Positions 21,261 through 63,700 of a stretch of DNA of 64,000 bases are shown here, in pieces. This DNA comes from Azolla caroliniana (lineage: Eukaryota; Plantae; Polypodiophyta), in the NCBI GenBank assembly GCA_043228905.1, contig JBHGNT010000022.1, positions 4,402,001-4,466,000 of the forward strand, in the 5' to 3' direction. A model generated the notes under the pieces. It did not search any database. It had not been told where the DNA came from and saw only the letters and a list, made by a program, of their open reading frames with translations. Made by a program: the position numbers and the translations under genes. Within the stretch, counting starts at the first letter, position 1; every line of letters begins with the position of its first letter.

Positions 21261-22707
21261 AATTCACCAGAGGAATTGAGACGAATTTCCGCTTCGTCAT
21301 TCCGAACCTGAAGAGCATACTTAGCACGTAATGTTGTTGGCTGATCAGTATGCCTTCAGGGGTACAAATCACTTCAATCCCGAGCAAGTAATGAAGGTCC
21401 CCTAAGTCTTTCATGTTGAATGATGTTGCTAGTTGGGACTTTACACGGCTGATTTCCTCTGGGTTGGTTCTGACGATGACCAAATCATCAACATAAAGTA
21501 AAATCCTTACCGGCCCATTCTGACATTGTCGGGTGAAGAGTGAAGAGTTCGACTTGGATGTAGCAAACCCCATCTGACGTAGGTGTTACATGATCTTAGT
21601 GTTCCAGGCACGGGGGGCTTGCTTTAATCTGTAAAGAGAATTCTTTAGTCGGCAGATAACCAACGTATTCAATCCAGACTCAAATCTAGGTGGCTACACC
21701 CTGTATACTTGTTCCTCAAGTTCTCCTTGCAGGAACATGTTCTTCACATCCATCTAGTGCAAATGCCAACCCTTTGCCGTGGCGACCACAAGCAAGACAC
21801 GGACGGTCGTCAACTTCGCGCAGTGTTGCTGCGCATAGCCGTGGACGGTCAATGTCGTGTTGCTGCGCATAGCCCTTAGTCACTAACCGGTGTCGTGAAG
21901 ATTTTCGGCAATGCTGTGAAAATTGTGAGGAACATACAAAATCGAGTGTGGTTCTTCACACACGATATGAAACAATAATAGTAAAGATACTATTTTAAAT
22001 TAGTTTAATATCTTGGTACGAAAAAATGGATGTCAGCAAGAGCTTCTGAATGCATTTTACTACACATGAAACAGACAACTAAGTGTCAAGTTATCTGAGT
22101 GTGAAGTTTGAGAAGAAGAAGAGGAAAACAAAATTGTGAGATATCCCACATTCATAGGACAACATCAGGATTCGAGCATATATAAGTAGAGCCATATCTC
22201 TTTTATATCTATGTATTTATAGCACATAAAGGTTGTGGGTTCTATAAATTAGATGAATGAATGTGGTCAAGTTATTCAAATAGGGTTTTGGACGGATCCG
22301 GACCGGGTGGACAGATGGAACTGGAGTGGACTGGACGGAACCGGATCGGATCGGTCGGGACGTACGGACCGGTCGGACAAATTCATCGGGTCGGTCGGAT
22401 AGGTGGATCATGATGCACTGTTTCTTGAAGATTTCTCAGTGTGAAAGGAACAAAATCGTCTACAGGTTCCATAGCTTCATTGGAGGTCGAAGGTGTAATA
22501 TGCAGTTAAACATTTGTAAATAGAAGACTAAAGCCTTGTAAAATTTTGTGTTTATGGTGTAAGTAAGAATTTGAACCTTGCACCTTCAAGATAGGAGACA
22601 AATTACTTACCACTAAAGCCAGTACTGAGTGCTTTCGAATTTGTATATTTTCTTTTCATATTCAGTATTTTGTAGGAAGCAAACATATAGAAACCATAAG
22701 CACAAAA

Positions 22708-22782
22708 CCATGGTTTTAGCCCATGCTTTTAGCTCGTGGTTTTAGCCCATGGTTTTAGCCCGTGGTTTTAGCCCATGGTTTT
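22708..22782. repeat. 13-bp tandem repeat ccatggttttagc in the LTR of I (also 39827-39903)
   Basis: About five to six degenerate copies are visible in both LTRs, just upstream of cctataaaa. Confidence 0.9.
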
Positions 22783-23089
22783 TGTATGGAGAGACCTATA
22801 AAATCCTATAGTTGGGCTTGTGTAAAGGGGGAAGGGATGTAAGTAAAATAAGAAACTTTTAATGAAAGATCTGAGTTATCCTAATGGTGATGTATCTTGT
22901 CTCGTAAAACTAAAGTCAAGGGTTCAATCTCTATATCTCAATCTCTCTCTCTATCTTTTCATCCATCTATCTATCTTCAATACTTTCTCGCTTACACTAC
23001 TAAAAACATTGAATCCTTCCAATACAGGACCTCGACAGTTCCGCCTCACGATCCGCAGGTAGTGATGGATTTGTCACGACATAATAGAG

Positions 23090-23107
23090 TGGTGAACTTG
23101 ACGTGAA
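23090..23107 (+). promoter_or_regulatory. Primer-binding site, tRNA-Trp type (2 mismatches)
   Basis: tggtgaacttgacgtgaa versus tggtgaacccgacgtgaa in L. The latter is complementary to the plant cytosolic tRNA-Trp 3' end ...TTCACGTCGGGTTCACCA (recalled from memory, not searched). Confidence 0.8.
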
Positions 23108-24786
23108 AGAGGCGGTAGGAAGGATCAAGTCAAGGATCGATCGATACTTGGAGATGGCATCCTCAAGCAATCAAGCAGGAGAGTTTGAAAGGATGATGCT
23201 ACTTGTCGAACAAATGATGAGATCTTGGGACAACGATGCGAGTGTGGAGAAGGCTGTCGACCGTGTCGTGGAGCTCGAGGGTCAATTTGACGAAAGGAAC
23301 ATTACGAAGTTCCTTGATTCATACGGAAGGGAGATGAATCAGAGGGACGTGTCTAAAGCGCGTCAAATCAGAAGTTTCAAGAGAGTGGTCGCCAACAACA
23401 TCCAAAGGCGCGTCATCAAGCTTGAAGAAGACAAAACATGGTCCGAGTTCAAGAAAGCAATATTAGCGGAGTTCGCGATGTAAGATTTGTCGAGGATGAC
23501 TTGACATGCCTTGATTAAGTGGATAGAGAAGAAAAATAAGAAGGTAAGCACGTCGAGGGTGTACGACGAGTTCGACCAGATGTTTAGTCTTCTCCCTACC
23601 ACGGACCAAGTGTTGCTTGATGAGGACAAGACTTTGTACTTCTTGAAAGCTCTAGATATGAAGGATAGACGAGAATTGGGGACTCTCCTCGAAGATGATA
23701 CCCAAGCAAATAGGCTTGTGGCAGATTGGATTGCAGTGAAGTGAGCATGCAAGAGGCTAAACAAGCGTCGTCAATGGGTTGATGACACCAACTTGGCAGG
23801 ATCAACCAGGGAGAAAACGAGACAACCGAAAGTAGCTGAGCAGCCCAAACAAAGGAACCCGAAAGAAAAGAAGATTGATGAGGACATCATCAAAGAATTG
23901 GCGAAAAAGTTCGAGACAGTCACGCTAGCGAACATGAATCGTTGGGGCCTCAAGGGAAAAGAACCCTTTAGATGCGTGTGGTGCGATAGCATGGACCACA
24001 TGAGAAGGGATTGCGCAATCCTTCGAGAAGCCATTCGACAAAATATCATATACATGGATGGCAACATGATCTGCTTAAGTGAGACTAGAAGACCCCTACA
24101 GGCGAATTTCGGAAGGCGGGAGCAAAGTTTTGGTCAACCGTTCTCGAGTATGAGAAGAAGGGAAAGGTCACTTCGAACGAGGTTACAGCTTGCGGACCGA
24201 AGTATGCAAATTATAACTGGATGGTCGGATCAAATGGATGATAACACCATACTCGCGGAAGTGATGTGTGACAACCACGAGGTGTTCATGGATGAAAAGA
24301 GAAAAAGAATGGAATGTTACCGGCCGGCAAGGAGTCCAAAATACGGAGTGAAGGAATTAATTAAGTATGGTTGTAAATAAGCATAGTATGGACGGACGGA
24401 CTAGAAACGGTATGCCGTTCCAGATTCGGACGGATCCCGAATAGGTGCGATAGGCACCGTTTTGTACTACGGACCGGAAACCTATTTAAAGGCCCGGAGC
24501 CCATTGTAATCGCAGCGGATAATTAATAGAGCGTATGGTGTTTATACTTCTGTGTTGATTTCCGTTCTGTACTTACTGTTATATCTTACGCGTGTAATTA
24601 ACAAAAGCGCTCTAATCGTGTAACCTACGTAAGTCGGTGTAATCGTTGAGTCATAATCCTATGCCGTAATCACCCTTTGGTGAAGTGTCTCCGCGACACC
24701 TTGTGTTAGGCCTTGTCCGGTCAGAGAATAACACAGTTTTGGCTACCACGATTCCTGCTTTCTCGCAGCGAACGACGGCTTAATGG

Positions 24787-26110
24787 ATGACGAGACATAC
24801 GCACGACCTGGTTACAGACCGAGCTCGACGCCTCGCCGAACGGCAAAGACGGCGTGAGACTTTCCAGCAAGCAGCGCACGAAATTCGCTCGGATCGTTCG
24901 TTCTCCAACGAGATCCGGAGAGTCGCGGAGGAATCTCTTCGGTTACAGCAAACTCGCGACCAGGACGACGGAAGCGGTCTAAGTAGTCTCCGGGAAACCG
25001 AACGCCTCCTCGAGGCGCTGGCAAGCGGAGAAAACGAGGCAGAAGCCTTTTCAGCCTACGAATCGGATTCCGAAGGGGGATACAGCGTGCACACGAACTA
25101 CCGGAGCAGCAACGATACCCCCGGCGGCCCGGAGGACGACGGGTCAGATACCGTGCCCACTCCAGAACCGGAACCGTTCGACCAGGGCTATCCGGAACCG
25201 CAAACGGAAGCCGTCAACCCACCAACACCGGAAGTGGAAGAAGCAAAGCCACCGACACCAACAAAAGAGCTGGTGAAGGTACCGGAAGAAGAGCCGGTGA
25301 AGGAACCGGAAAAAGAACCGGAAGAGGAACCGGAAAAAGCACCGGCAAAAGAACCGGAAGTGGAACCGGAGAGAAAACCAGAAAGATATCAACAAACGCC
25401 ACTAAACCGCGGCCTAATACTGGACGACGACATGCCGTTCCAATAGTCAAAGTATCGCGATGATCCGGACGCGGAAGCGCATGTTCATGCCTTCGAGCAG
25501 ACATGGGAAGCAAATAACGCGTCCCAGCGACTGACACCGGAGGAAGAAGAACGCTCGAAGATAGCGGAATTCGGGGTCACGTTGGAAGGACCAGCGACAC
25601 GATGGCGGCGGACGCAGGACCCGGCGACCATCACAACCTTTGCAGAATTAAAAGCAAAATTCTTGCATTTTTTCCACAAGGAGGTCGACTAGACGACAAT
25701 GGTGGGCCTGTTTTATACGATCTGACAGGAGGCAGGGGAAAACATTCCCCAATTCGTCATCCGTTTCCAACGAATGCATAGCCAGCTTGCCCGTGCACCC
25801 CCGGAGGAGGAATTACGGACGATATTTTTAAACACACTCCGGGAACCGTTACGCACGGTGTGTACGGTGATCGACTTTCGAGGAAGTACCATTGACCAGG
25901 TCATTGACCGGGTCAGAGAAATGGAAAAGTCAAGCTCATGGCTTACACTGGGAGCACTGCAACGGGCGTTACCCACCGATGAAGATCTCCGGTTCTGGCA
26001 GGCAATTCAATGCACGATCTGCTTGAATGCCGGACACTCGGCAGTGGAGTGCACCATGCGAACCCAGTGTGTGATTTGTCAATCCAAGAGTCATACAACG
26101 GACCGGTGCG
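24787..26110 (+). pseudogene. gag of J: acidic/Pro-rich N-terminus, capsid region and two CCHC knuckles; three in-frame stops and a frameshift
   Basis: One frame is continuous through TAG 25444, TAG 25690 and TGA 25723. It includes DPDAEAHVHAFEQTW, TLEGPATRW, CTICLNAGHSAVEC and CVICQSKSHTTDRC. Confidence 0.85.
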
Positions 26111-29100
26111 ATCGGACCGTTATCGGGAGTCCAACAGACGACACGAGCAATACGACAGAGACCATTCCCCTGGTTACCGAAGGCACCAGGAGGACTACGG
26201 CCGATGTTACGATCCACCACGACAGGACTACCGAAATAAAAATAAGAATAATAAGAAACGTAATTTCAAGAAAGGTGGTCACACTAGGGACCCAGAACAT
26301 GGAACCCCAAGGAGCCAACCGGCACAGAACGCACCACTCACTACGGGACCGACTCCGGCTACCAGCAATGCTGAATCCAACAATACCCGTAAAGAGTACT
26401 GCTACTACTGCAGGCAGGAAGGCCACTACAGTAACCAGTGCCCGGCAAAGAGCTACGATAAACGACCAGCAGTTAATATGGTGGTTCCGGAAGTGGCGGA
26501 TGTACAGCAAGTAACCACACGGTCGAAAGGCATGGCCAAAGAGTGGGAAACACAAGAGGCCATACGAAAACAGGCGACGGAATGGGTGAAGGAAGCCAAT
26601 GAAAGGAACGTCGCGGACGCGGAACGGCAAAAAGCGAATACCATAGGGAGTGCCGGCGGTAGCCACGCAGAAAACGAGACATGGCAAGCACTGCAAGAAT
26701 GTCAGATCACGTTGCCATTAGGAAGACTCTTGCAGCTCATGCCGCGATTTACGGAAGGACTAAAAACGGTCATGACAGACGGTGTAGCCCCACCGGCACC
26801 AGTCCTCTTCTCGAATCCGGAGGAGGGACCGACGGTGGTGGACACTAGTAGTCCGGTGATTACAGCTATTGTCAAAGGGCACGAACTTCCCGGCACAGTA
26901 ATCGATGGAGGTTCCGGGGTGAACGTAATAAGCCTCCGCACGTGTGATGCCTTGGGTATACATGAATGGGAGCCATGTCCGTTCTGGCTACGGATGGCGG
27001 ATACGAGCTCTGCACGGCCAACGGGCTTAATACGGAAATTGGAGGTCACCATAGGAGGTCACACATTTCACATCTCGGCTGTAGTGCTGCAGCTACAGGC
27101 GCAAGGCGCGTACCCACTGTTGCTGGGCAGACCATGGTTGAAAACAGCACACATCAAGCAAAATTGGCGGAAAAATATGATTACCTTCCGGCGCGGAAAA
27201 GCCAAGGTTCGGGTACCGACACAACCACGGACGAGCAACGGTAAGGAATGCACACCGCTGTATGCGGAATGCGTGAACATGCTTGAAGGGTTGGCAGACG
27301 ACGAAGAAGCCGAGTACTTGGAGGAACACCCGAAGATCGTACCACTCTTCGAGATTGACGTAGCTGAAGCCGTAGCGCCATACTTGCCGCAGCGGGACGA
27401 AACCGAACCCGAACCAGACAAAGATGCGATTCGGGAATTACGGCAAGCACAGGAAGCGTTGGAACGGGAAATGGCCATTTCCCAACGGGTAAAAACATCC
27501 CAGCTCGATGAAGTGAACCTAGGAAGCAAGGACGAATCAAAGCCGGTACACATCGCCAAAGAAATGAAGCCGGAAGATAAAGCGGCGATGATCACACTTC
27601 TCACGGAGTTTCGCGACGTATTCGCCTGGTCATACGAAGACATGCGAGGGCTGGACCCTCAATTATATCAGCATCAGATCCACTTAGGCAAGGACGCGAA
27701 ACCAGTGGCGCAAAGACGTTACCGAATGAACCCCAACTACGCCGCCAAAGTGAAGGAGGAAATCGACAAACTCCTAAGAGTGGGCTTCATCCGGCCGGTA
27801 AAGAAAGCGACGTGGCTGAGCCCCATCGTCGTCGTCCCAAAGAAGAACGGTAAAATCCGCGTGTGTGTAGATTACAGGAAACTAAATGCAGCCACAATTA
27901 CGGATGCATTCCCTCTTCCGTTCACGGATGGAGTATTGGATGTCGTCGCTGGCCATGAAGTTTATAGCTTTTTAGACGGGTTCAGCGGATACAATCAAAT
28001 CCGGATGCACCCTGACGACCAGGAGAAGACAACGTTCGTCACCGAATGGGGGGTGTTTGTGGCCGTAGTAATGATGTTCGGACTAAAAATGGCACCAGCA
28101 ACTTTCCAGCGAATCATCATGGAGATCTTCGGCGAATACATTCCAGCCTTCATGCAGGTTTTCCTGGATGACTTTGCAGTCTATAGCCGGGAAAAAGACC
28201 ATTTGCAGCACCTACGGTTATGCCTTGAAAAGTGTAGGTTATACCGGCTAAGCTTAAACCCAGCAAAATGCATCTTTGGGGTTTCAAGTGGAATCTTACT
28301 GGGACACATTGTAAGTAAGGAGGGCATTGCGGTCGACCCGGACAAAGTAAACGCGATACTAGGGGCACCGGCGCCGAAAACGGCCAAAGCACTAAGCCCA
28401 TTCTTAGGACAGATCCGGTGGCACAGCCGGATGCTCCGTCACTTGGCTGACTTGGCTACACCATTACACACCGCGGTACATCGGACACCGTTCCAATGGA
28501 CGGATACGGAGGATAAGGCATACAATGCCCTGAAGGTACTTTTGTCACAAGCACCCGTCGTGCAGCCTCCGGATTGGAGCAAGGAATTTCATGTGTTCGT
28601 TGACGCTTCCGACATCGCTATCGGCAGCGCCTTAATGCAACATACGGAGCCTAAATGGTACCGGCCGGTATATTACGCCAGCCGGAAGCTGTCCCAAGCG
28701 GAGAAGAACTATTCGACGACGGAACGGGAGGCCCTGGGCATGATCTACAGTGTAACAAAGTTTCGTCATTACCTATTGGGAAGGAAGTTCTCCTTTCATG
28801 TAGATCACTCGGCGCTCCTGTACTTAGTGTCCAAGGCGTCCCTGACCGGTAAGTTGGCCCGTTGGACCTTGCTGTTGCAGGAGTTCGAATTCGAGATTTT
28901 CCACCGGCCCGGTATCCAGCATGTCGTAGCAGACTACCTGAGCCGGTTAGAGTCCGGAGAATCAGGCGACGGAGTATCGGATGAATTCCCGGACGCAGAG
29001 TTATTCCGTATCACCCCGGAAACGGCAGCGGACGACACGGTGGCATCAGAAGATAGGTGGCTGACAAACATGCACCAGTTCCTAAGCACGGGCCTGCCAC

Positions 29101-30380: not shown

Positions 30381-30721
30381 AAAAAAAAAAAAAATCATTA
30401 AAAATCGAGGTATGAACGGACGTGAAAGGAAGGAGCGAAAAGGTACGTAGTGGGCATTTAAGAGCCGCCACATTACTTAATACTAAATTGGTACACGACG
30501 TGCGCATGCTCGAAAAAGGCGCCAAGACGCACAGAGAAAAAGCAGAACGCATGGAGACCTTTTTTTTTCGCGAGCCAAGAAGCACAGAAGCACCAAGGCG
30601 GTGGAAGCTTAGCAAACGCGAACCTGCACTCAGAGAACCCCCACGTTCGGAACTCTCTCTCTCTCACTCTCACTCTCATCACCACTCTACCTCGCCATCT
30701 TTCCTCGACCTCGAAGCAAAC

Positions 30722-33391: not shown

Positions 33392-35645
33392 AGGGGCCGA
33401 GAAGGGTTCGACGTACAAGGTACTGTCCCACGGGCGTGCCATGTGTTACCGGCCGGCAAGGAGTCCAAAATACGGAGTGAAGGAATTAATTAAGTATGGT
33501 TGTAAATAAGCATAGTATGGACGGACGGACTGGAAACGGTATGCCGTTCCAGATCCGGACGGATCCCGAATAGGTGCGATAGGCACCGTTTTGTACTACG
33601 GACCGGAAACCTATTTAAAGGCCCGGAGCCCATTGTAATCGCAGCGGATAATTAATAGAGCGTATGGTGTTTATACTTCTGTGTTGATTTCCGTTCTGTA
33701 CTTACTGTTATATCTTACGCGTGTAATTAACAAAAGCGCTCTAATCGTGTAACCTACGTAAGTCGGTGTAATCGTTGAGTCATAATCCTATGCCGTAATC
33801 ACCCTTTGGTGAAGTGTCTCCGCGACACCTTGTGTTAGGCCTTGTCCGGTCAGAGAATAACATGGAAGGGCAAGAAAACCCATCAAAAAGACATGAAATA
33901 AGGAGCGCGAAAAAGAAAGAAGATGCAGAAACGAGTCGAGATTTACAAATGGAAGAAGGAGTCTCAAACTGGAAAGGGGAGTCGGGCAAACGAGTCAAAC
34001 AAACGGTTCGGTCCGTGAGGGTTGATGTCGAAAACCCTGCTCGAAAGACGAGAACTATGCCTACCTATAAGCTAAGGTCGGACATAGAGCAGACGACAGA
34101 TCTGAAGAAGATTCTCAAGGAACATGTTCTTGATAGCCATGTGCTCGGCATTACAAAGAAGGAGTAAAAATCCATAACGACGGCAAGGGATGACGTCGAT
34201 GAAGATATGTTGGACAACCACTATACTTGACCTCATTAGGCACGAGCGACAACGGAGACGATGGTGAAGATCGTGGAGAAGAAAGAGACTGTGGTAGCCT
34301 TGATTGACCATGGCTTGGAGATCAACCTCATGTCAACCGAGTTCTACAAAAACAGGAGATGGCCAATTAACACAAACCACGGATGGAATATTTGAGTGGC
34401 AACAAAGGCCACAGAGGACTTGTATGGAGCTTGTGCCAATGTTAAAGTCACAATTGGGGATGTGGAGATGGATCAACACTTCTTCGTGCAAGAATCGGCT
34501 TCGCATCCTGTCATCCTAAAATGAGTTGGAAGAGAGAATCTTAAAATGATCAAGCCAGGTAGGAGCTGGGTTTTGGCCGACGGTCTTCGAGTGCGAGAAA
34601 AAAGGAAAAATTGATTCAGAGGATCTAAAACATGTTGATTGGAACATCGACGAGTTACCGGATGGTCAGATGTAGTCGACGATAACACAAGCTTTGCGGA
34701 GGTTGTGTGTGACAACTATGAAGCTCTTGTCGAAGAGAAGAGGAAAAGAACCAGTGAAGAAGATGGGACATTAAAGCGTCCCAACACGAGGAACGCAAGG
34801 AAAGAAGGGCAAGCCCAAGCTACGCCAAGAAAAGAGGTTGGAGAAACAAGCATGATGCCCAGTGGATCGGGCCAACCTGCTCGGATGGAAGTCGATGAAT
34901 CAAAGAAGAAAGGAAAAGAATGAGCAACACCGACTTACAAGCTAAGGAGGGACATAGAACAAACAATTGACTTACAGAAGGTCCTTGAGGAGAAGGTTTT
35001 AGACAGTCATGTCGACCTTACTTTGAGAGAATTGCTTGGGATCGCGAAGAAGGAGTTCCATGATACTATTGTGGACCTTATTAAGTGGAAGCGGCAACAA
35101 TCTGATGAAGAGGAGGTGAAAACAAGTGCCATAACCATGGCAAGATCGGAAGAGGAGGAGGAAGAAGAAGTGGTGGCAGATAGCTATTACTCTCGACCTC
35201 ATTAAGCAAGAGTGACAATGGAGACATCGGTGAAGGTCGGGGAGAAGAAAGAGACCGTGGTAGCCTTGATTGGCCATGGCTCAGAGATCAACCTCATGTC
35301 GACCGAGTTCTACAAGAAAGGAAGATGGCCAATTAACACAAACCACGGATGGAAGATTCGGGTGGCAAGAAAGGCCACAGAGGACTTGTATGGGGCTTGT
35401 CCTAATGTTAAAGTCACGATTGGGGATGTGGAGATGGATCAAAAATTCTTCGTGCAAGAATCGGCTTCACATCATGTCATCCTAGGACAACTGTATATCA
35501 CATCATCCTGGATGGAGACCAAGGTGTTCGATAATGGAGCAGCCTTCGCATTACTCAAGAGTCTTGACAATCAAAGTTCTGTTCAATTCCTAATGGTGTG
35601 ATCTAATCATGAAAGAAATCAAGATAGTCTTGGGGCCGAATCCTC

Positions 35646-35708
35646 AAATTTTTAGAGCGGACTATTGAAGCATGGGGCACAAATAGTCCGAGCAATCACA
35701 AGTCCCCA
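35646..35708 (+). promoter_or_regulatory. Putative -1 programmed ribosomal frameshift signal (slippery heptamer plus pseudoknot) in element I
   Basis: A_AAT_TTT_TAG ends the protease frame, and the -1 frame runs open into the ORF at 35730. Stem cggactatt/aatagtccg; loop tgggg pairs with downstream cccca. Confidence 0.8.
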
Positions 35709-38700
35709 CAAGAAAGTAGAGCGCGTGGATTGCAAGGAGAAGCAACATGTGTCACACCTAGTGGTGCATGTAAACTAGTACTACCCAACAAAAAGGACAA
35801 GCGTCGGATACAACACTTCGAGAAGATGCTTAAAGAAGAAAACATAATAGAAGAAGAAGAATTCGTGACTTATATTATGGAAGAAGCCTCATTTAACGAC
35901 ACCATCGGCGAAATCGAGGAAGTCGTGGACTTGAGCTATCTTCACAATCAACACGTGATTTTGGTTAACTCTATCAACATGTACGCTATCATTGATGAAT
36001 ACCATCAAGGCATCTTGATGGAGGAAGCTGGAGTCAACACAAAATATAAAATGGTGCACAAGAAGATCAAACCAATTGCGGTTCTGCTACAGAAAGATAG
36101 CTGGCAAAAGCTGAAGGAAGTTGCAAAAGATCCAGGTTTAAGGAATCCAAAGACAATTGGTCATGTCTTCATTGACAAGACGAAAGGGAAGTTACGAGTT
36201 GGAAGGGAGTATTTTCTCCTCACTTAAGAGGAGCGAATGTTCCGCAGAATGCTTGAAAGACACGAGAAGGCTTTCACATTTATTCCATAGGAAATCAGAT
36301 GTGTTGATCCAAAGACAGTAGAACCGATGGTGATCTTCACGGTGCCACATGTGCCTTGGAATTTGAAATCGATACCGGTTTCGAAAGCACACCTACCGAA
36401 GTTGATTGAGTTGTTAAAGGAGAAGGTGAATATGGGAATTCTGGAATCGTCGAACGCTCCTTATTCTAATAGGTGGTTCATGGTGCCAAAGAAGAATGGA
36501 TCATTGCGATTCATCGAAGATCTTGAACCCGTCAACAAGGTGACAATTCGGAATGCCGGAATTGGTCCGAGTGTGGATGAATTTGCTGAAGCGTTTGGGG
36601 GCCGGTCCATCTACTCCATTCGTGATCTCTATTGTGGATACAATCAATTCCAGTTGGCGATCGACAGTTGTGACATTACAACCATGAGGACTCCGATCGG
36701 GATTGTACGAATGTGTACCTTACCTAAAGGTGCAATGAACTCGGTGGCTCATATAATGAATGCCATGAACAAGGTCTTGAAGGATTGCATCTCGGGCATC
36801 ACAATGTCATTCTTAGATGATATTCCGATAAAAGGATGTTCGGATGAGGAGAAGGATGAATCTAAAGATAAGGAAGGGTGTAGAAAGTTCGTCGTGGATC
36901 ATATGAAAGATTGCGAGAAGGTGCTCCAAAGGCTCGAAGATGCGAATTTGACATTTTCGGGAGAAAAATCCGCATTCGCGCAACCGGAGATCTTGGTGAT
37001 AGGTCACTTGTGTGGAGCATACGATCGGAAGTCTTCACCTTCCAAGCTGAATGCGATCCATGACATGAAAGAAGAATGTGTAACCTAAACAGAGGTTCGA
37101 AGGTTTCCTGGAGCATGCACGTTTTATCATATCTGGATACCGCACTATGCTCATGTCGCGGAGTCATTATATGGATTGTTAAAGAAACGAATGAAGTTCG
37201 AATGGCGAGACGGGCATAAAAACACAATGTGAAGATTGAAGAAACTACTTCTTGAAGCTCGAGCACTAAGAAAGGCCGACTATACCGAAGGGAAGCCGAT
37301 TTATGTGACTGTAGATACAAGCCCAACCGGAATCCGGTGGGTCATCAACCAAGAAGGAGAAGATGATGCGCGGTATGCCATCCGGTTCGGAGCAAAGGTT
37401 CTCAACGAATGACAACAAGGATACACCCAAGTCAAGCAGGGACTTTGGGGTATTGTGTCTGCAGTGAAGATGGATAAAGACTACCTGATCGGGTCGGAAG
37501 TGATAATCGAGACAGATTGTCTCCCAATCCTTGGGATGATCTCAAGATGTGCGACACCAGATCTAACAATGCTAAGGTGGATTGTCTATATCAAGTCTTT
37601 AAACCCAAAGATCCGCCACATTGCAGGAAAGAAGAACGCCATGGATGACATGCTGTCGAGGGCAAGATTTGAGAATGAAAGTGACTTGGTTTGGGAAGAT
37701 GAAGACGTCACCCTCTACTTCTTCAAGATGGCTCTACTATCACCGGAAGACAAGGGTTGCTAACCCTCTATGCCTTCAACGAGAACGAGTACGAAGGAGA
37801 GTGGTTACTAATCGGCAGATTCTTAAGAACAATGATGGCAGACGCTTCGTTGACGAAGGAGGAGGCTCTACGAATCCAGAAGAAAACTTATCAATACTTC
37901 CTGAAGGGAGGATACCTCTGGCGACACCCAAAGAGAAGGATAGGAATGCCACGTCGAGTGGTGGTGAAGAAAGAAGAGCAAGTGATGCTGATGAAGGAAT
38001 TCCACGAGAGTCTTTGGCCAGGTCATAGAGGAACATGGGCGACGTTCCAAAAATTGAAGGAGAAGTACTAGTGGCCAAGCATGTACAAAGATGTCCTCCA
38101 TTTCGTGTCCACATGCGAAACTTTCCAAGTACATTCTAACATACGTCATTGTGATGAATTACGGTCGACATACCCACTCACCATACACTTCAAATGGATG
38201 GTGGATCTGGTCTCCATGCCAATGGGAGTGGGGCAAATGAACTACTTAGTACTGGCAAGAGAAGATTTGACAAATCAAGTGGAAGGACGGGCCTTGGCAA
38301 ATAAGATGACGTCAACTGTTTGGAAATTTCTACTCGAAGAGGTTGTCTACCGATACGGATGTGTGGGGAAGATAGTGGTCGACCGAGGGGAGTTGGATGC
38401 ACACGAAGCAACGAAGCTCTTCGAATGACTAGGTGTGAAGGTCTCCCTCATGATTGCCTACAATATAGAAGCGAATGGGAAGATCGAGCGAGGACATGGA
38501 CCAATCGTCAAAGCCATCGTACGAGCATGCAACGGTCGAGTCGGGAACTGGCCACGACTATTTCCCTATGCCTTGTGGGCCTATAGAACTACACACAGTT
38601 CAGTGACAGGCTATACGCCAATAGAGCTTATGTATGAACAAAAGCCAGTAATGCCCATCGAAAGGACGATCATCTAATGGGTAGCGATACCATGGGAGAA

Positions 38701-39010
38701 CGAGATGAGCCGAGAAGAATTATTAACGGCACGGATAAGGTAGCTTGAAAGAAGGCCTGAAGATTTAGAAAAAGCACGAAAGATGATGGAGGCAGCTTGA
38801 GTGAAGAACAAGATTCGGTTCGAAAAGACACATCGATTGCATCCCAAGAAGATCGAAGAAGGAGATTGGGTATTGGTCTACGACAACAACCTTGATAATC
38901 AACAAAGGACAACAAGAAAGTTCGCAAGAAGATGGTTCAGACCGTATGTGGTGACAAGTGCCAATGACAATGCCACATACCACCTTGCGGAGCTAGACGG
39001 ATCAGGACGA
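35652..39010 (+). pseudogene. pol (RT-RH-INT) of element I, multiple stops and frameshifts
   Basis: ORF fragments at 35730, 36327, 37455, 37757, 38081, 38435 and 38801 carry RT, RH and INT motifs. Confidence 0.9.
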
Positions 39011-42000
39011 CGTGCAGTTTGGTGGGTGTGGATGTCGTGAAGATTTTCGGCAATGGTGTAAAAATTGCGAGGAACATACAAAATCGAGTGTAGTTCTTCA
39101 CACACGATATGAAACAATAATAGTAAAGATACTATTTTAGATTAGTTTAATTTCTTGGTATGAAAATATGGATGTCATAAAGAGCTTCCGAATGCATTTT
39201 CTACATGTGAAACGAACAACTAAGTGTCAAGTTATGTGAGTGTGAAGTTTGAGAAGAAGAAGAGGAAAACAAAACTGTGAGATATCCCACATAGATATAG
39301 CAATATCAGGACTCCAGAGTACATAAGTAGAGCCATATCTCTTTTATATCTATGTGTTTAGAGTACATAAAGGTTGTGGGTTCTATAACTTAGAGGAATG
39401 GATGTGGCCAAGTTATTCAAATAGGCTTTTGGACGGATGGCACTGGGCAGACGGATGAGACCGGATCGGATCGGTCGGGACGAACGAACGAAAATTCATC
39501 GAGTCGGTCAGATAGGGTGATCACGATGCACGGTGTCTTGAAGATTTCTCAGTGTGAAACGAACAAAATCGTCTATAGGTTCCATCGGTTCATTGGAGGT
39601 CGACTGAAGGTGTAATATGCAGTTAAACATTTATAAATACAAGACTAAAGCCTTGTAAAATTTTGTGTTTATGGGGTGTAAGTAAGAATTTCAACATTGC
39701 ACCTCCAAGATAGGAGACAAATTACTTACCACTAAATCCACTATTCAGTGCTTTAGAATTTGTATATTTTCTTTTCATATTTAGTATTTTGTAGGAAGCA
39801 AACATATAGAAACCGTGGGCACAAAACCATGGTTTTAGCCCAAGGTTTTTAGCCCATGGTTTTAGCTCATGGTTTTAGCCCCTTCGTTTAGCCCATGGTT
39901 TTTGCATGGAGAAACCTATAAAAGCCTATAGTTGGGCTTGTGTAAGGGGGGATGGGATGTAAGTAAAAAAAGAAACTCTTAATCAAAGATTTGAGTTATC
40001 CTAATGGTGATGTATCTTGTCTCGTAAAACTAAAGTCAAGGGTTCAATCTCAATCTCTTTCTCTCTCTTCATCCATCTATCTATCTTCAATACTTTCTCG
40101 CTTACGCTACTAAAAACATTTAATCCTTCTGGTTCAGGACCCCGGCGTTTCCGCCTCACGATTCGCACGTAGTGAAGGATTTTTCACGACACCGGGCATT
40201 GTATCGGTTGACGGAGAAACCGATGTTGTACTTCACCTTGTACACCCATCTGCATCTGATTGACGTTACTCCCTTCAGAACGTCAACCAGATTCCATGTT
40301 TCGTTTTCCATGCATCTCTTCCTCAAAAGCGGCATGCCAATTTGCATCGTTTGCCACTTCTACATAGCTCTCTAGCTCACGGATTTCCGCCACCTTTGTC
40401 ATGTATACATAATGATGCACCATGTAGTCATTATATCCTTATCGAACTACAGGATATGTCTGGTGGAGAGATTGGCGCAATTTCTACTCTACCGATTTGA
40501 TGGTCCTCTTGGCCGACTCCGACCTCTTCTTTGGAGGTCCGTCTTCATGCTTTCGGGAGTTCGATTTGCTCCGATCCAACTCTTCCTTGTCTGTTCCATA
40601 CTCCGGCATCTTCATCTTTCCTTTCTCCTTGCGTGTAAGCTGTCTCCTCGGTTTCCGACGCGGGGACAACACGACCGAGTTTCCACTACTCGCAGGCTCA
40701 TCATCCCGTTGGTCTTTCCGACTCAACTCTTCATTCGGCCCGCTCAGCCGTAATGAGATCAGACTCTCTTCTAGAGCTCTGATTTCTTCTTCGTTCAGAG
40801 GCATTTTGGCCTCATTGACCTCATTCTCAGATATCAAAATGGAGTTGTCGGGGGTTAGAGACGAGGGCAAGTACCATGACGCCGACTCATCCAACACGAC
40901 ATCTCAACTCACCCGAACTTGTTTGGTTCGGGGGTTATAACATTTATAACCCTTCTGCTCATTTGAGTAGTTGATGAGAATGCACTTCTTGCCTTCTCCT
41001 TCGACACATGCACATAGGCAATGCTGCCGAACACCCTCAAGTGTCCCTATTAATAATTAGGTAATTAATTAGGGTTAATTGGTGACTAATTATGTGAGTA
41101 GTTAAGCAGCAAAAGATTATGTGATATGTGTGTGAGAGGAAGATACACTTACGAACAATAATGTAATTGGGGGATGATTAACAAGAGTGTAGCTAAAGAC
41201 CTTTCCTATATAGGAATTAGCATCATCAAAATAAAAAATACCCACAATGAGGTATATATACATCTCATGTGCAAAGGCGCACATGTGTGAGTAGAATATA
41301 GTTACAAACGTGTAAGTCCTATATTAAATGAACATGGGAGTGGAGGATCTACAATGTATCTCACTCAAGTACAAAATCCTATTTAAGGCTTTAAGGTCAA
41401 CATACTAACTAGATTCTATCTAGGTAACTACTAAGTTACGTGTGTTGATTAGCTAACTATCTCTAGTTGAGCTTGATATCTCAACACAGCCTCTCAAGGT
41501 CAAGTGTGAGGAGTCTAATGTTCGCTTTGGATTCCGTCGGCTTTGTCGGCTTCCGTATGGCCTTTGGCTTTCTTCGGCCTTTTCGAGGCAATCTCGGTTC
41601 CTCCCCCTCAAGTCGGTGACAAAGGCTTGTAGTGTGAAATGGGTGAAGGCCGACTGCTTCCATCCATCATGGGGCATGAGCCACTTTTGTAGAGCTCTCG
41701 GGCTATGGTTCGGCCACTACCTTCATCGGGAAGGCATAATGATGGGCCATATACTCGTTGTAGCCGAGCTGAGTGATCGGGTTCTTCTCTCGAGATGAGC
41801 ATCAAAGTTTTTCTCTCTCCGATGTGAGCGCCTTCTTTACTCTGGGTGTCCACATGATGGGTACACCAAACTCACTATCGTTGGGGTGGTTGACTTTGTA
41901 TTCAGGCATCTTCCCTTTGCCTCTGTCTGATTTTGGCCGTGACATGCTTTGGTTGTGTGAAGGCTCGGGTGGTCCACTTAGATCAATGGAGCTTGGATTG

Positions 42001-47480: not shown

Positions 47481-47804
47481 TTTCTGTGTTACCGTTGCTC
47501 TGATACCACTTTGTTAGAAATTGGCTCTTTCGAAACCACTTTGATAAACACAGTGCTCGGCCACAACCGAGGAATAGGATCAACTCACAGAAAACAGGAA
47601 ATACAAAATGCACGAAGACAATAGAGAGAAGAGTACACAGGATGTTTTACGTGGAAAACCCTACATGGGAAAAACCACGGGAGTCCTCAAACTCCAAATA
47701 TCACTATAAACAGAGATGTACAATGGTGAAGCTACAAGGCAACAACCTTGAGCTCACTGTCTTCACCACAGGCGGCGGTAATACACAGAGGCAACGACCT
47801 CTTC

Positions 47805-47845
<41 letters not shown>

Positions 47846-56155: not shown

Positions 56156-56583
56156 TGTCACAGACACACCAAGCACGGACTAGGATGGAGCACAAATGAC
56201 AAGGCTACGAGGACCTTAAGGAGCTAGGAACGACATAAGAGAATGAAGATAGAGATGAAGAAGGAGAAAATATGGAATGAAACGAGAATACTAGATTGAT
56301 GTGTCAATGACTGGTGTTGTTCACCTTGAATTCCTTCAAGGTGAACTCAACTATTTATACTAAGTGGCATGCATACTTGTTGCACACATGTGATACAATA
56401 GAGCATGTAGGAAGTAGGTACGCATGCATGTGCCAAGTTTTAATAATACAAGGGAGAATTTATGCACATGATGCTAGCTAAAACCTATAATGAGGAAGTA
56501 TATACATGATTATATGCTAGATGTGTGGTTAACACATAACACTCGATTATAACATGGTCATGTCAAGAGTTCGAATCTTGACA
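56156..56583 (-). mobile_element. Solo LTR (428 bp) of a family not otherwise seen in the window
   Basis: TGTCA...TGACA termini and a perfect TSD cacat/cacat. It interrupts M at TSSMC|LRFG. A TATA-like gtataaatag lies on the minus strand. Confidence 0.9.
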
Positions 56584-57317
56584 CACATACTCGAGGTGCC
56601 TTTCAAATATCAGAGTATCCACATGCCCGCGTTCTAGTGCTCTTTTCCGGGATTGCTCATGTACAGACTCACCATTTCGACTACATATCCAATATCCAGT
56701 TGGGTACACACCATTGCGTACATCAAGCTCCTGGATAGCTTGCAGTTTCCCGGGAGTGTCAATCCGACCGGTGTCGTGAAGATTTCCGGCTATAGTGTGA
56801 AACCGGGGTGGAATAGGCAAGTCGGTGGTGTGCAACATGTGCACATGTATACTAGGATATGGTGTATAGAAAGAGAGGGGAAATTTTTGTCCCACATTGT
56901 AAGGTCCCTCCCTCCTTGGGCTATAAAAGGAAGGGAGGGGTCACTTATGAAGGGGTTGCCTATTTTGTGCGAGTAAGGTATACCACTTAGTCTAGGGTTC
57001 TCCCTCTTCCCATTTCGTTTTAGGGTTAGGGTTTCGGTTAGGGTTTTCTTCTTGGGTTTCTCTTTAGGGTTTTCGGATAGTCATTTTGGTGCGGCCATGG
57101 CAGCCACCATTGTTGTAACCATTCGTTGTTTTAATATAACTTGTTGAGCATCTTGCCTCCGCCGATCCCTCCTTCGATGTCGTGGTCTTATTCTTTCCTC
57201 TTCTCCTCTTGAGCTAAGCCTCCATATCATGTCCTATTCTTTCTCCTCCACTCCCTAGTCCAAGACCCCCGTGGTCCCGCCCCTTCTACACGCACGCGCG
57301 TAACAACGCGACATCTT

Positions 57318-57335
57318 TGGTGAACCCGACGTGAA
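57318..57335 (+). promoter_or_regulatory. Primer-binding site complementary to the tRNA-Trp 3' end
   Basis: tggtgaacccgacgtgaa, 4 nt after the 5' LTR end. Confidence 0.85.
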
Positions 57336-57350
57336 GGGTGGCAAGGGAGC

Positions 57351-60300
57351 ATGGAGATGGAAGAAGACTTGGACTTCGAGGAGATGATGGCAAAAATCGG
57401 GATGGAAGCCGGACGGAAGATGGCGAAGCGAGGTGCGGCTCAACAAGCCGTCGAAAGGGTGGTCAATCGAGTCGGCCAATTCAACGGGGACGATGTCCCG
57501 AGGTTCTTGGAAGCGTACGAGGCCGAGATGGCGAAAGGGGGCGTGGACGAGGAGATGCGGCTAGAGTATTTTCCTTGAGTGGCGGCCGCATTGGTGCACA
57601 AGGAGGTCAAGGAGCTACGAGAAGCTCACGAGTCGTGGGTGTCCTTGGAGGTAGCCCTATTGGAAGCGTGCGGATACACGAAACCGGAGTGAGTATGCCG
57701 GCAACCCGATGGGGAGCGGTCGGCAACAACGTGGCCCGCGAGCGGCAGAGAAGAGAGAGCGGCGAGTGAGTACGCACTACTGCCGGAAGAGAGCTCAACG
57801 CAAAACGGTTCGGAGGAGCTCGACCTAGAAGCGCTAATATGAGAGGCATGCGAGCTTGTGAAGGCGAAAATTTGAGCCGAAGAAGGGCTTGTTATGGAGA
57901 CGGGCCGGAGGCGATCGGAGGATGTGGAGGAAGAAGCCTCCCTAGACGTAGAAGACGGGGCCTATACGGAGGCCGGGAGAGCGTACGATGGCGAGATAGG
58001 AGAGGGTGCGGAGCAAGCGACCCTCTTGCCTTGCGGTGAAGGGACCGGTAACTACGGATTCGGGACATGGCGGCCCGAAACATCGAGTGAGGAGCGGACA
58101 AGCGGCGGTGCCGCGACCTTACACACACCGGTCCTAGAGACTCCGGCATCCGGCCCGAGAGCCGGTGTGAGACCTAGAGTGACGGATGGTGGCGGCGGCA
58201 AGGCGGGCAACCGAGACGACGGCATGGGAGAGATGGTGGCAAGCGTAATCGAGGTTTGCGGAATCGAAGATGGGGTAGCTGTGGACAACGACGACCGGAC
58301 GGAAGCGGCTACTGACACAACGAGTGGCGGTGCCGGGTCCTTACCCACACCAGTCCTAGAGGCTCCGGCGGCCGGCCCGAGTGCCGGCGTGAGACCTAGA
58401 GCGACGGGCCGTGGTGGCGACAAGGCGGCCTACCACGGCGACGAAGAGAACGAGGAAGAGATAGCCACGGACCACGACGTCCGAACGAAGGTGGCTACGA
58501 ACATAGCATCGACGAGTAACGATATCGGGACTTTTCCCACACCTATTCTAGAGACTTCGGCAGTCGGCCCCGAGAGCCCACGTGAGACCGGAGAGACAGA
58601 AGGTGGCGGCGGCAAAGCGGACGATCGAAACGACGACGAGGAAGGTCGTAGCGGACGGAGGCAAGACCTCTCGACACCGAGACCGGAGACTACGGCGGTT
58701 GCGCTCGAATGCCAACATAAGACCGGAGAGAAGGGCGGTGGCCGTGAGGAGGTGTGGCCCGGAGCGAACACGTAGGAAAATGAGGACGCGAGGCCCGGAA
58801 CAGGCATATACGAGAGGACCGACGGAGAGGTCGGGAGCGGCAAAGAGGAGAGAGTCGGGAACCGACCCAACCGGAAGATGGACCGGTCGATAATCCGACA
58901 TGACCGGAAGACGACGCGGAAGAACATTGTAGCGGGGTCTGGTCAACCGGGCCTGAACTGAAGAAGAGTTGGCAAGGTCGGATTTGTTCGGACAAACATC
59001 TACCGGCCGGTTACGATTACGGAAGGGAGCCGACCTAACCGGAACTCGATCGGCCGAGACCGATCCGGGCGAAGGCTAAGTTGGCACGGTTGGAGGTCGA
59101 GGCGAACGGGCCACAACACCCGGTGGGAGCCGGTGAGCGCGAGAAGGAAGCTAACCGGGCACGGTGATTACGGCTTGGCAGAAGACCAAGAGCGAGAGGA
59201 GCCCTCCACATCTATCCTTGAGACTTCGGCGGTTGCGGATCAACATAAGACCGGAGACACAACGGGTGGCGGTGAGGAGTCGGAAACCGGAACTGATGAG
59301 GCCACTGGAACGGGTACCCGGTGCGTGAAGACGGACGAGCACGGCCAAGACGGCAAGCCGGAGTCGAAAGGGGCTACGGCAAGAAAGGACGAAGAGACCG
59401 ACGCGGAGGTCGGGTCTACGACGGATGAGGCGCGTAAAACGGAGCATGCACTACGGCCAGCGAAGGGCCAAGAAGTAAGCATGCAACCGGAAGAGCGGCA
59501 ACGAGTGACCGACAACGGTGGACCAGTCGAGCCTTTGAGAGACAAGCACGTGGCGAGAGACGAAGCCGTAAGGTGCCGAGATCGGCGGATGGGTGGCGAG
59601 AGCGAAGGATGGTGCGCGGAGAACAACGGGGTACACACCGGGAAGAGAAAACGCAGCGGCTTCCCGGAGGACATACAAGGCCAAGCAGGCCAAGAGGGCG
59701 CAAGTGGAGGCGAGGCGGTAACGAGAGCCTCGAGGGACACCGACACCGAGGTCGGGATGACGGTACGCTCTACGGCGAGAGAGCACGACGGGCAAAGGAG
59801 AGGCAAGGAACGTGGAATGGGGTCGCCTAAGGGCCAAAGAATGAGCACATATTTGGGGGACAACATCGGCGCACGAGAAGAGCCTATGGAAGGCAAGCGC
59901 GGAGCAGGAAGAGTCGACACGCCGAGGTGTTCGGCATGCGGACACGATAAAACCAAAGGAGGAACATATGCGGCACGAAAAGGGCGGAATCCGGAGTACG
60001 ATCGGAGAGTTCAGGAGCGCACCCGGAGAACATACGAGCCTTTGCGAGGAATGCGCGCGGCGAGAGACGGAGCGGTGAGGTGCCGGTATCAGCGGATGAT
60101 CGACGAGCATGAAAGGCTATGTCTTGAGAACCGGAGGAGGTGCGTGAAGAGCAACGGGCTACGCGCCGGGAAGAGGAAGCACGGCTTCCCGGAAGGCATG
60201 CGAGGCCAAGTGGGCCAAGAGGACGAGAGTCGGGATGAAGCGGTAACGGGAGTCGCAAAGGACATTGACATGGTGGTCGGGATGACGGTACGCTCTATGG

Positions 60301-60770
60301 CGAGAGAGCACGACGAGCAAGGGAGAAGGAAGGAGCGCGTAATGGGGTCACGTAAGGACCGAAGAACGAGCACGCATTCGATGGACGACAACGACGCACG
60401 GAAAGTGCCTACGGAAGCCGAGTGCAGAACGAAGGGAGTCGGTACGAGGTGTTCGGGGCGAGGAGAAGGTCGAGCCGGAGGTGGAACACACGCGATACGC
60501 GAGGAGCGGCACCCAACGAGCAATCGAAGTAATCGGGGGTCTAACCGGAGGACATGCTCGGTGAGCGAAGGAAGGGAGACCGGATCGGCAATGGTGTTCG
60601 GGATGGCCGGTCGAAGAAGAAGGTGCATGCGCCGTACATGGCGGATCGGATGGAGCCGACGGTTCGGGGAAACGCGGTGGACGTGGTGGATCGGATGGAG
60701 TCGGCGGGTCGGGGCCGGCAAGACAGATCGGCGCCAGCAAGGGACCAGCAAGGCGGTTGGGTGTCGGTAA
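57351..60770 (+). pseudogene. Single long frame of L: Gag N-terminal domain plus repetitive disordered extension (~1140 codons, six internal stops)
   Basis: ORFs 57351, 57894 and 59133 share one frame, with stops at 57576, 57690, 57840, 57873, 58773 and 58959. AVERVVNRVGQFNGDDVPRFLEAYEAEM aligns with AVDRVVELEGQFDERNITKFLDSYGREM of I. Confidence 0.72.
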
Positions 60771-63700
60771 GGCGAAAGACCCGGTTGATCACCATCGCCG
60801 AAATCTCTCACCTTTTTCCTTTCTTGGCACATACCGGTGGATGTGCGGTTTGGTGGGGGTGGATGTCGTGAAGATTTCCGGCTATAGTGTGAAACCGGGG
60901 TGGAATAGGCAAGTCGGTGGTGTGCAACATGTGCACATGTATACTAGGATATGGTGTATAGAAAGAGAGGGGAAATTTTTGTCCCACATTGTAAGGTCCC
61001 TCCCTCCTTGGGCTATAAAAGGAAGGAAGGGGTCACTTATGAAGGGGTTGCCTATTTTGTGCGAGTAAGGTATACCACTTAGTCTAGGGTTCTCCCTCTT
61101 CCCATTTCGTTTTACGGTTAGGGTTTCGGTTAGGGTTTTCTTCTTGGGTTTCTCTTTAGGGTTTTCGGATAGTCATTTTGGTGCGGCCATGGCGGCCACC
61201 ATTGTTGTAACCATTCGTTGTTTTAATATAACTTGTTGAGCATCTTGCCTCCGCCGATCCCTCCTTCGATGTCGTGGTCTTATTCTTTCCTCTTCTCCTC
61301 TTGAGCTAAGCCTCCATATCATGTCCTATTCTTTCTCCTCCACTCCCTAGTCCAAGACCCCCGCGGTCCCGCCCCTTCTACACGCACGCGCGTAACAACG
61401 CGACACCGGTTTTGCATCCGACATGTTGAACTGCTGAAGCACCTGTGTCACATACTCTTCTTGTGACAACCACAATAGCTTCTTCTTCCGGTCCCTCATG
61501 ATGTGCATCCCTAAGATTTTTCTTTCCGGACCAAAATCTTTCATGGAGAAGGTCCGGTTCAAGGCCTTCTTCAGCATCCCGATTTTGGTTCCATCCGGTC
61601 CGACAATCAACATGTCATCCACATACAGGAGTATCAGGAAATCGCCTCCATCAATTTCTTCACAAACACGCAGTGATCGGCTTGCATTCTGTGGTACCCT
61701 TGATCGGTCATGAAGGAGTCAAACTTCCGGTACCATTGCCGGGGGGCTTGCTTCAATCCGTATAAGCTCTTCTTCAGCCGGCACACCAGGTGCTCATTCC
61801 CTTTCTTCTCAAATCCTTCCGGTTGATGCATGTAGATCTCTTCCTTGATGTCGCCATGTAGGAATGTCGTCTTGACGTCCAATTACTCTACCTCGAGGTC
61901 CATGCTTGCCACTATGCCCAATACCGTCTGGATGGATTTCATCTTTACTACCGGGGCAAAGATCTCATCGAAATCCACACCTTTCTTCTGCTAGAAACCC
62001 TTCACGACGATCCGAGCCTTGTACCTCGGTGGATTTCTGGCGTCTCCTGGTTTCAGCTTGTATACCCACTTATTCCGGAGTGTTCTCTTTCCTTTTGACA
62101 GCTCCGTCAATTCATATGTGTGGTTCTCATGCAGGGAATCCATCTCGTCCTGCATGGCACAAGTAACCACTTGCGACTGTGGGTGTTTTTCTTTGCTTTC
62201 TTGAAGCTTTCCGACTCCCCCTCATCAGTAAGCAACACGTGCTCGGTATCCGGGAATCTCCGAGGGCTCTTCTCTCTCGGAGAGGATATCTCTAACCTTG
62301 GTTTTTGGCAACCGGTTCCTCCGTCTGTTCCTCATCCTCATCTGATTCAGGATCTTGTCTGTAGTGTCTTCTTCTTCTTCTTTGGTCGGTTCGGTTTCTT
62401 GTCCGAATTCAACCGGTTCGTCGAGTGTCATCTGGTTACCGGCTAACATTTGGTTTCCAACTGGGTAAATCCTTGTGTCCTCAAACTTTTTCTTCGTCGA
62501 TTGATCTGGAGTCCATCATCTTCTTCTCCGACTCCCATTCGGCAATGGTCTTGTCTTCCATGAAGACTATGTCCCGACTCCGGAACACCTTCTTGTCAAC
62601 GAGATCCCACACCCGGTACCTGAACTCATCATTGTTGTATCCAAGGAATATACATGGCTTGGACTTCGGATCTAGCTTTGCTCTAGTCCTTTGCAACATG
62701 CACATATGCGAGACAGCCAAACACCTTCAGATGCCGGTAAGACACATCTTTACTAGCCCATACTTTCTACGGTGAGTCTCCTTCCAAGGGTGCTAAGGGT
62801 GATCTTTTTATCACATAGGTCTTCATCATTAGTGCCTCAGCCCAAAACGTCTTAGCTAACTTGGCATGTTCATCCGTTGAGCCAGCCCGTTCAATTCCAA
62901 CGTCTTCGGCATGGTGAATTCGAGCCGGATTCCCTTCGATCGGCAGTACTCCTCGAACTGCCCCTGGTATTATCCTCCATTATCTGCTCGAATCGCCTTT
63001 AGCTTCCGACCGGTTTCCCTTTCCACTCTCGCGTGTAGTTCCTTGAAGATAGATAACACCTGATCCTTCATCTTTAGCAGAGAGACCCACAACTTCCGGC
63101 TGTGGTCGTCTATGAACATCACGAAGTACTGCAATCCGGCATGTGACTTTGTGTCCACATGACACACATCGGTATGCACCAGCTCCAGTGGTGCATTCCA
63201 TCTCATCGGTGGTCTTGACCGGAAGGAGGTTCAGTTTTGCTTGTCAACCAAGCAGTCGGTGCACTTCTCAAGTTGCACGTCTTTTACCTCTGGAATGAGG
63301 TTATCTTCGGCAAGTCTTCTCATCCTCTTCTGACTCATGTGACACAACTCACCGGTAGTGTCGGATGCTACGTTCGCTTCTTCTCGGCATATCTAGGCAT
63401 GCATCAGATAGAACGTGTTGATCTTCTGGGCTCGAGCCACGATCATGCTTCCTTTGGTGAATTTCATGACTCCGTTCCGGATTCTACCTGTGTAGCCTTC
63501 ATCATCTAGCCGACCGGCTGATATCAGGTTCAACCGAACCTCCGGAACGTGTCAGACTTCTTTCAACAGCACTTTGCATGCAGTTGATGTCGTCAACAAC
63601 ACATCTCCTATGTCGACAATTTGGCATGTACCTTCATTACCCATCCAGACACAACCGTGATCTCTGGCTATGTAGGATGAGAAGCATTTTCGGTTCGGTG

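What the first reader, a model, noticed from the sequence alone, without database searches (positions are those of the whole stretch)
21887..61409. Two independent tRNA-Trp-primed gypsy-type insertions both target CCGG with a 4-bp TSD
Seen: element I is flanked by taaCCGG|TG...CA|CCGGgca and element L by cgaCCGG|TG...CA|CCGGttt. Removing one CCGG copy restores each host frame (RYNARLV and MSDAKPVG). Every other resolvable insertion here has a 5-bp TSD of unrelated sequence. Known: plant LTR elements usually make 5-bp TSDs with weak sequence preference, while 4-bp palindromic targets are typical of some animal gypsy elements. Inference: the integrase of this lineage is sequence-specific for CCGG, a CG/CHG methylation site that is very common in the neighbouring retroelements. 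This could be a chromodomain-free way of targeting other TEs. The sample is only two insertions.
Basis: partly seen in the sequence, partly recalled or inferred. Interest (0 to 1): 0.85.

Follow-up and report, generated by a model that had tools for sequence, protein, structure and literature searches.

The report
CG-targeting plant retrotransposons, not CCGG-specific
The two jumping genes really do sit in duplicated CCGG sites, but 78 insertion flanks of related copies show a broader four-base target with CG in the middle (ACGT most often), which matches the preference already published for the moss Phygy retrotransposons, to which these likely belong.

Summary
Element I (21891-40191) and element L (56772-61405) are each flanked by a 4-bp CCGG duplication, share LTR start, polypurine tract and primer site, and interrupt copia RT genes. 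The other four LTR elements resolved here have 5-bp duplications.

Strict CCGG specificity fails. Of 78 distinct left flanks of related LTRs from metagenome contigs, 59 are NCGN (background 3.7%), 17 carry TG or CA in place of CG, 2 are other; CCGG is 5 of 78, ACGT 18 of 78. Sequencing runs holding element L's family also show ACGT as the commonest flank, although CCGG-like flanks are frequent there. The motif is V-CG-B. CCGG is the commonest NCGN word in this window, so two of two has about a 4-5% chance.

This is described: Neumann 2019 lists Phygy with a 4-bp NCGN duplication, tRNA-Trp primer, 7.7-10 kb and no extra domain. Element I fits the size, duplication and domain features; the Trp identity is recalled and placement against REXdb was not testable. 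Modest additions: the V-CG-B refinement, a young non-autonomous partner (L), and relatives in liverwort and ferns. Whether the integrase reads methylated CG is open.

The parts
21887..21890 (.). Left target site duplication of element I (CCGG)
21891..23081 (+). 5' LTR of element I (TGTCGTGA...TCACGACA)
   Evidence: 87.6% to the 3' LTR
23090..23107 (+). Primer binding site of element I, 8 nt after the LTR, 2 mismatches to the L site
23229..24116 (+). gag remnant of element I, with stops
   Evidence: tblastn with Riccia polyprotein P0351, 31% identity
24315..33862 (+). Unrelated young gypsy element nested in I, 5-bp duplication TGGAA
34060..35751 (+). Protease region of element I, partly duplicated (about 966-bp offset)
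35628..37760 (+). RT and RNase H frame of element I, 5 stops
37757..39010 (+). Integrase of element I (H2C2 zinc finger and core; no chromodomain hit), 5 stops, 3' end short compared with intact relative P0003
39018..39032 (+). Polypurine tract of element I, shared with L
   Evidence: 87% over 55 nt spanning the tract and LTR start
39033..40191 (+). 3' LTR of element I
40192..40195 (.). Right target site duplication of element I (CCGG)
56768..56771 (.). Left target site duplication of element L (CCGG)
56772..57313 (+). 5' LTR of element L (542 bp)
   Evidence: 99.3% to the 3' LTR
57318..57335 (+). Primer binding site of L (TGGTGAACCCGACGTGAA), exact complement of an 18-nt CCA-ending plant small RNA filed as miR894; tRNA-Trp identity recalled
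57435..57623 (+). gag remnant of L, 32% identical to the gag of I; no pol in L (non-autonomous)
60849..60863 (+). Polypurine tract of L
60864..61405 (+). 3' LTR of element L
61406..61409 (.). Right target site duplication of L (CCGG)
   Evidence: junction also held by a contig of run X1 (record 8)
21700..21890 (-). Host copia RT, downstream side of insertion I (the other side runs on from 40192)
56560..56771 (-). Host copia RT, downstream side of insertion L (the other side runs on from 61406)

Best explanation
Elements I and L are a decayed pol-bearing and a young non-autonomous member of one chromodomain-free gypsy lineage, likely Phygy or its close kin, whose copies sit in 4-bp duplications with a central CG (V-CG-B, ACGT commonest), so the two CCGG sites are two draws from a broader preference in CCGG-rich DNA. 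Mechanism, inferred: the integrase cuts with a 4-bp stagger, which puts one dinucleotide step at the centre of a sharply bent target. It selects CG there by bending plus base contacts, and avoids T at position 1 and A at position 4. L is likely copied and inserted in trans by intact relatives of I, since it shares LTR ends, primer site and polypurine tract. TG and CA cores are mostly later decay of methylated CG.
For: (78 distinct flanks, found with a pattern that starts at the LTR's first base): NCGN 59 of 78 vs 3.7% background (p 2e-67). Of the 19 others, 17 have TG or CA (14% expected, p 7e-13) and none TA. Among the 76 CG/TG/CA cores, position 1 is A42 G17 C14 T3 and position 4 is T42 G21 C13 A0. 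I-like (45) and L-like (33) starts both show it. Right flanks: 11 of 13 NCGN. Single-LTR pairs ACGT/ACGT, ACGG/ATGG, ATGT/ACGT, CCGG/CCGT. Runs holding L's family: loose ends behind the LTR end have a consensus starting ACGT (80 contigs in X1, 68 in X5). Integrase-end, RT and gag hits tie several loci to I's lineage. Phygy row: 186 elements, 4 bp (100%) NCGN, tRNA-Trp 81%, 7656-9968 bp, no extra domain; I without its nested element is 8748 bp. YR-step rule for short staggers: PMC4422553 abstract.
Against: No labelled Phygy sequence could be compared, and no Physcomitrium protein was named. The 78 flanks come from contigs only 69-85% identical to the window, so from related organisms, and from short-read assemblies; 4 of 8 single-LTR pairs do not match. 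In the window's likely own species CCGG-like flanks are frequent: 55 contigs in X1 and 38 in X5 align through all four CCGG letters (biased towards that flank, and a first-letter mismatch may be tolerated). Two CCGG of two is still a 4-5% event under the fitted preference.
Confidence: 0.8

Rival explanations
1. The I/L integrase in this species is specific for CCGG, like Ginger1 transposases.
For: Two of two in the window; many contigs align through CCGG after the LTR end; Ginger1 shows that a gypsy-like integrase can give CCGG 75% (PMC2836005).
Against: 5 of 78 in relatives (95% interval 2.8-14%). In runs X1 and X5 the consensus of non-T flanks starts ACGT. 23 of 78 (X1) and 22 of 60 (X5) listed contigs that align past the LTR end stop before the fourth letter, with T commonest next.
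Confidence: 0.04
2. The integrase prefers methylated CG (same V-CG-B motif), which steers copies into silenced transposon DNA without a chromodomain.
For: Near-fixed CG core with no TA core; both window insertions lie in copia RT genes; no chromodomain hit; Phygy was often nested in Tcn1 in Physcomitrella (PMC6911290 passage).
Against: No methylation data were examined. The window is almost all retroelement, so nesting is expected. Decayed cores show methylation at some time, not at insertion. Retroviral local preferences were largely independent of chromatin.
Confidence: 0.12
3. The lineage is a sister group of Phygy, or another non-chromovirus with 4-bp duplications, that shares the CG preference but would be classed apart.
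For: Named relatives are Riccia, Adiantum and Ceratopteris, not Physcomitrium; Phygy was defined as species-specific; TatI also has 4 bp and tRNA-Trp.
Against: TatI needs an archaeal RNase H, with no such Pfam hit in I or six relatives; Selgy uses tRNA-Ala and is about 5 kb; only Phygy is listed with NCGN; Phygy is also reported in the liverwort Apopellia.
Confidence: 0.15

Closest known systems
Phygy, non-chromovirus Ty3/gypsy lineage (Neumann et al. 2019, PMC6317226; saw abstract, passages, sections 8, 13, 15 and the lineage table, Additional file 5)
   Same: 4-bp duplication with central CG, about 8.7 kb, no chromodomain, no aRH, no extra ORF, same primer class (Trp by recall)
   Different: Here the motif narrows to V-CG-B, a 4.6-kb non-autonomous partner exists, and relatives reach liverwort and ferns; no direct sequence comparison was possible
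Ginger1 DNA transposons (PMC2836005; saw passages)
   Same: Gypsy-like integrase, 4-bp duplication with central CG (CCGG 75%, CCGT/ACGG 24%), TGT termini
   Different: Animal DNA transposons with inverted repeats, no LTR or RT; much narrower target than V-CG-B
TatI and Selgy lineages (Neumann 2019 table)
   Same: 4-bp duplications in non-seed plants; TatI is tRNA-Trp primed
   Different: TatI carries aRH (no hit here); Selgy is tRNA-Ala primed and about 5 kb; neither is listed with NCGN
Prototype foamy virus integrase (PMC4422553; saw abstract and outline)
   Same: Works like it: short stagger, flexible pyrimidine-purine step at the centre of the target
   Different: Weak, broad preference there; here nearly only CG. 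That PFV makes a 4-bp duplication is recalled

Membership tests
Phygy | Clusters with Phygy references in RT-RH-INT trees | not testable with these tools
   REXdb supplement files too large to read. One search shows only that I forms a deep, supported clade with Riccia, Adiantum and unnamed relatives, apart from the chromodomain-bearing and animal rows
Phygy | 4-bp duplication | tested here: met
   2 of 2 in the window; 4 of 8 single-LTR pairs match at 3 or 4 of 4 letters
Phygy | NCGN target | tested here: met
   59 of 78 NCGN, 17 TG/CA cores; 11 of 13 right flanks
Phygy | tRNA-Trp primer binding site | tested here: inconclusive
   Conserved site in I, L and 10 places in the loci, complementary to a CCA-ending plant small RNA; Trp identity is recalled; a search for the tRNA gene found none
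Phygy | Size 7.7-10 kb, polyprotein fills the interior, no extra ORF | tested here: met
   8748 bp without the nested element, including a duplication of about 1 kb
Phygy | No chromodomain and no archaeal RNase H | tested here: met
   Pfam on I and six relatives: RT, RNase H, H2C2, rve only
Tat / TatI | Additional archaeal RNase H | tested here: not met
   No second RNase H family at E 0.01
Chromovirus | Chromodomain after integrase | tested here: not met
   C-terminus of intact relative P0003 ends in a short acidic tail
Selgy | tRNA-Ala primer, about 5 kb | tested here: not met
   I is 8.7 kb against 4.4-6.7 kb; primer class differs by recall
Ginger1 | Inverted-repeat DNA transposon without RT | tested here: not met
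   LTRs, RT and RNase H present

The most novel reading that the evidence does not exclude
A gypsy lineage spread across non-seed plants has an integrase that reads methylated CG directly at the centre of a V-CG-B site, giving chromodomain-free targeting of silenced transposon DNA.
Probability: 0.12. Interest if true: 0.7.

Novelty: new member of a known kind. Interest (0 to 1): 0.25.

Why it matters
As found, it confirms and sharpens the one strong target preference known among plant LTR retrotransposons (NCGN to V-CG-B), shows it in organisms other than Physcomitrella's reference genome as far as sequence divergence suggests, and gives a clean system for asking how a plant integrase picks CG. 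If methylated CG were the signal, it would be a new route for transposons to find safe, silenced DNA; nothing here shows that.

Tried and rejected
No whole genome is held, so the genome-wide table was replaced by a metagenome scan and contig laying.

The viral-contig scan for the LTR start (45 loci) was not analysed; such hits are expected by chance for a 16-mer.

Rows dropped before the count of 78: of 121 matches, 14 failed the LTR-likeness filter (by eye at least L001, L059, L093 and L120 are true members; the two with host flanks read ATGT and CCAT), 28 were preceded by the polypurine tract, and L037 was removed by eye as a chance hit (flank AAGG).

cannot give a CCGG fraction: it is biased towards flanks that match the reference and mixes in primer-side contigs.

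No Physcomitrium-labelled relative came up. The Atlas search with a Riccia homologue gave generic gypsy clusters. RLG2 cells in the PMC7466625 supplement were cut at 400 letters and showed no match to the LTR start or primer site. A Ylt1 link (recalled) was not confirmed by passages of PMC2864245 or PMC5014426. Searches for the primer tRNA gene failed. No wider motif beyond the four bases stood out at positions -12 to -5 (by eye). A plain flexible-step model is disfavoured: TA cores are 0 of 19. Earlier scan findings: none. Literature searches for CCGG with gypsy, NCGN (20 of 93 listed, none relevant) and CpG insertion preference in moss found no paper on the V-CG-B refinement; subscription papers and REXdb's per-element table were not visible and may hold it.

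Full report
Observation. Element I spans 21891-40191 with LTRs 87.6% identical, element L spans 56772-61405 with LTRs 99.3% identical, and each is flanked by CCGG on both sides with a differing fifth base. The copia RT frames on the minus strand meet in register across one CCGG in both cases. The four other resolvable LTR elements have 5-bp duplications, three with one mismatch. LTR divergence is 0.096 for I and 0.007 for L, so the events are independent.

Anatomy. Element I holds gag, a partly duplicated protease region, RT, RNase H and integrase, all with stops. An unrelated 9.5-kb gypsy element is nested in it; without that, I is 8748 bp. Pfam finds no chromodomain and no second RNase H in I or six relatives. 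Element L has only a gag remnant 32% identical to that of I and no pol, but shares the LTR start, polypurine tract and primer site. It is therefore read as non-autonomous (inference). RT-RNase H relatives reach 85% identity in unnamed metagenome contigs and about 60% in Riccia and Adiantum; integrase relatives include Ceratopteris. They form one deep, supported clade apart from the other gypsy rows (25 selected rows). The host is likely a non-seed plant; it was not identified.

Testing the target. No genome is held. Of these 107 passed an LTR-likeness filter, 28 were preceded by the polypurine tract, and one (L037) was removed by eye, leaving 78 distinct host flanks. The pattern begins at the LTR's first base, so it does not select for the flank. 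NCGN makes 59 of 78 against 3.7% background; 17 of the other 19 have TG or CA at the centre and none TA. The commonest words are ACGT 18, ACGG 8, GCGT 6, ACGC 6, and CCGG, GCGG, ACAT and ATGT 5 each. T is rare at position 1 (3 of 76) and A absent at position 4 (0 of 76), giving V-CG-B. Right flanks agree (11 of 13 NCGN), and four of eight single-LTR pairs match at three or four letters, two of them by a CG-to-TG change on one side; the other four do not match, perhaps from collapsed assembly. These contigs are 69-85% identical to window elements, so they come from related organisms.

The window's likely own species. Ten runs hold 30-44% of the sampled words around L, and one contig of X1 spans L's right junction without a difference. 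Contigs leaving the LTR end with a first letter other than T number 80 in X1 and 68 in X5, and their consensus starts ACGT; 28 contigs entering the LTR start in X5 have a consensus ending ACGT, a group that excludes flanks ending in G. Laid on the CCGG junction, 55 contigs in X1 and 38 in X5 align through four flank letters, while 23 and 22 stop after three with T commonest next. That call favours CCGG-like flanks and gives no fraction. CCGG is thus common there but not exclusive.

Why two CCGG here. The window has 513 CCGG against 238 expected from base composition; CCG and CGG are enriched and CAG and CTG depleted. CCGG is 13.9% of NCGN words, the largest share. Weighting by the relatives' preference gives CCGG 19-22% per insertion, 4-5% for two of two, and 17% for any identical pair.

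Mechanism. Shown: 4-bp duplication, CG core, outer-base bias, no chromodomain hit. Inferred: a 4-bp stagger bends the target at one central step, where pyrimidine-purine steps are favoured in retroviral integrases, more so with short duplications (PMC4422553, abstract). The lack of TA cores argues for base reading of CG on top of bending. TG and CA cores likely reflect decay of methylated CG after insertion. Whether methylation guides insertion is untested.

Comparison with what is known. Neumann et al. 2019 (PMC6317226; passages, sections 8, 13, 15 and Additional file 5) name Phygy as the one plant lineage with a target preference, NCGN: 186 elements, all 4 bp, 81% tRNA-Trp, 7656-9968 bp, no extra domain. 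Jedlicka et al. (PMC6911290, passages) report GC-rich centres in 4-bp duplications and 4 bp as the commonest length for Phygy. Phygy is also named in the liverwort Apopellia (PMC12885004, passages). A near-strict CCGG target is known for Ginger1 DNA transposons (PMC2836005, passages). Element I meets the four Phygy features that could be tested firmly; the primer identity rests on recall, and phylogenetic membership could not be tested because the reference files were too large to read.

Verdict. Real and well supported as a CG-centred 4-bp target, but broader than CCGG and already described in kind. New member of a known kind; interest 0.25.

Noticed in passing
window 57318-57335: The primer site of L is the exact complement of TTCACGTCGGGTTCACCA, an abundant 18-nt CCA-ending small RNA filed as miR894 and mapped to gypsy elements in Cryptomeria (PMC5846777 passages); likely a 3' tRNA fragment that could silence this lineage.
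   Followed up: partly
window 24315-33862: Young gypsy element nested in I (LTRs 419 bp, 99.5% identical) with a long open pol frame and a 991-aa extra ORF at 30416-33391 that has no Pfam hit; lineage not placed.
   Followed up: no
window 57876-60770: Interior of L is GC-rich, with long stop-free frames (299 and 602 aa, no Pfam hit) and internal repeats (58112/58526, 59528/60035); origin unknown.
   Followed up: no
window 1-64000: CAG and CTG are depleted (790 vs 1084, 640 vs 984) while CCG and CGG are enriched (1137 vs 868, 1407 vs 965) and CpG is near expectation (0.95); fits strong CWG and weak CCG methylation decay (inference).
   Followed up: partly
window 34181-35484: Internal duplication with about 966-bp offset in the protease region of element I.
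   Followed up: no
L109 (flank before the LTR start): The flank reads as the end of another LTR of the same lineage followed by ACGT, so two copies lie four bases apart; a possible tandem or adjacent insertion.
   Followed up: no
L025, L044, L057, L063: Polypurine tract, LTR and primer site occur in a row; probably collapsed LTRs of short-read assemblies, but tandem elements or circles are not excluded.
   Followed up: no
window 23082-23089 and 57314-57317; L004-L073: The gap between LTR end and primer site varies from about 2 to 8 nt across the lineage, longer than the 0-5 nt window used by Neumann 2019.
   Followed up: no
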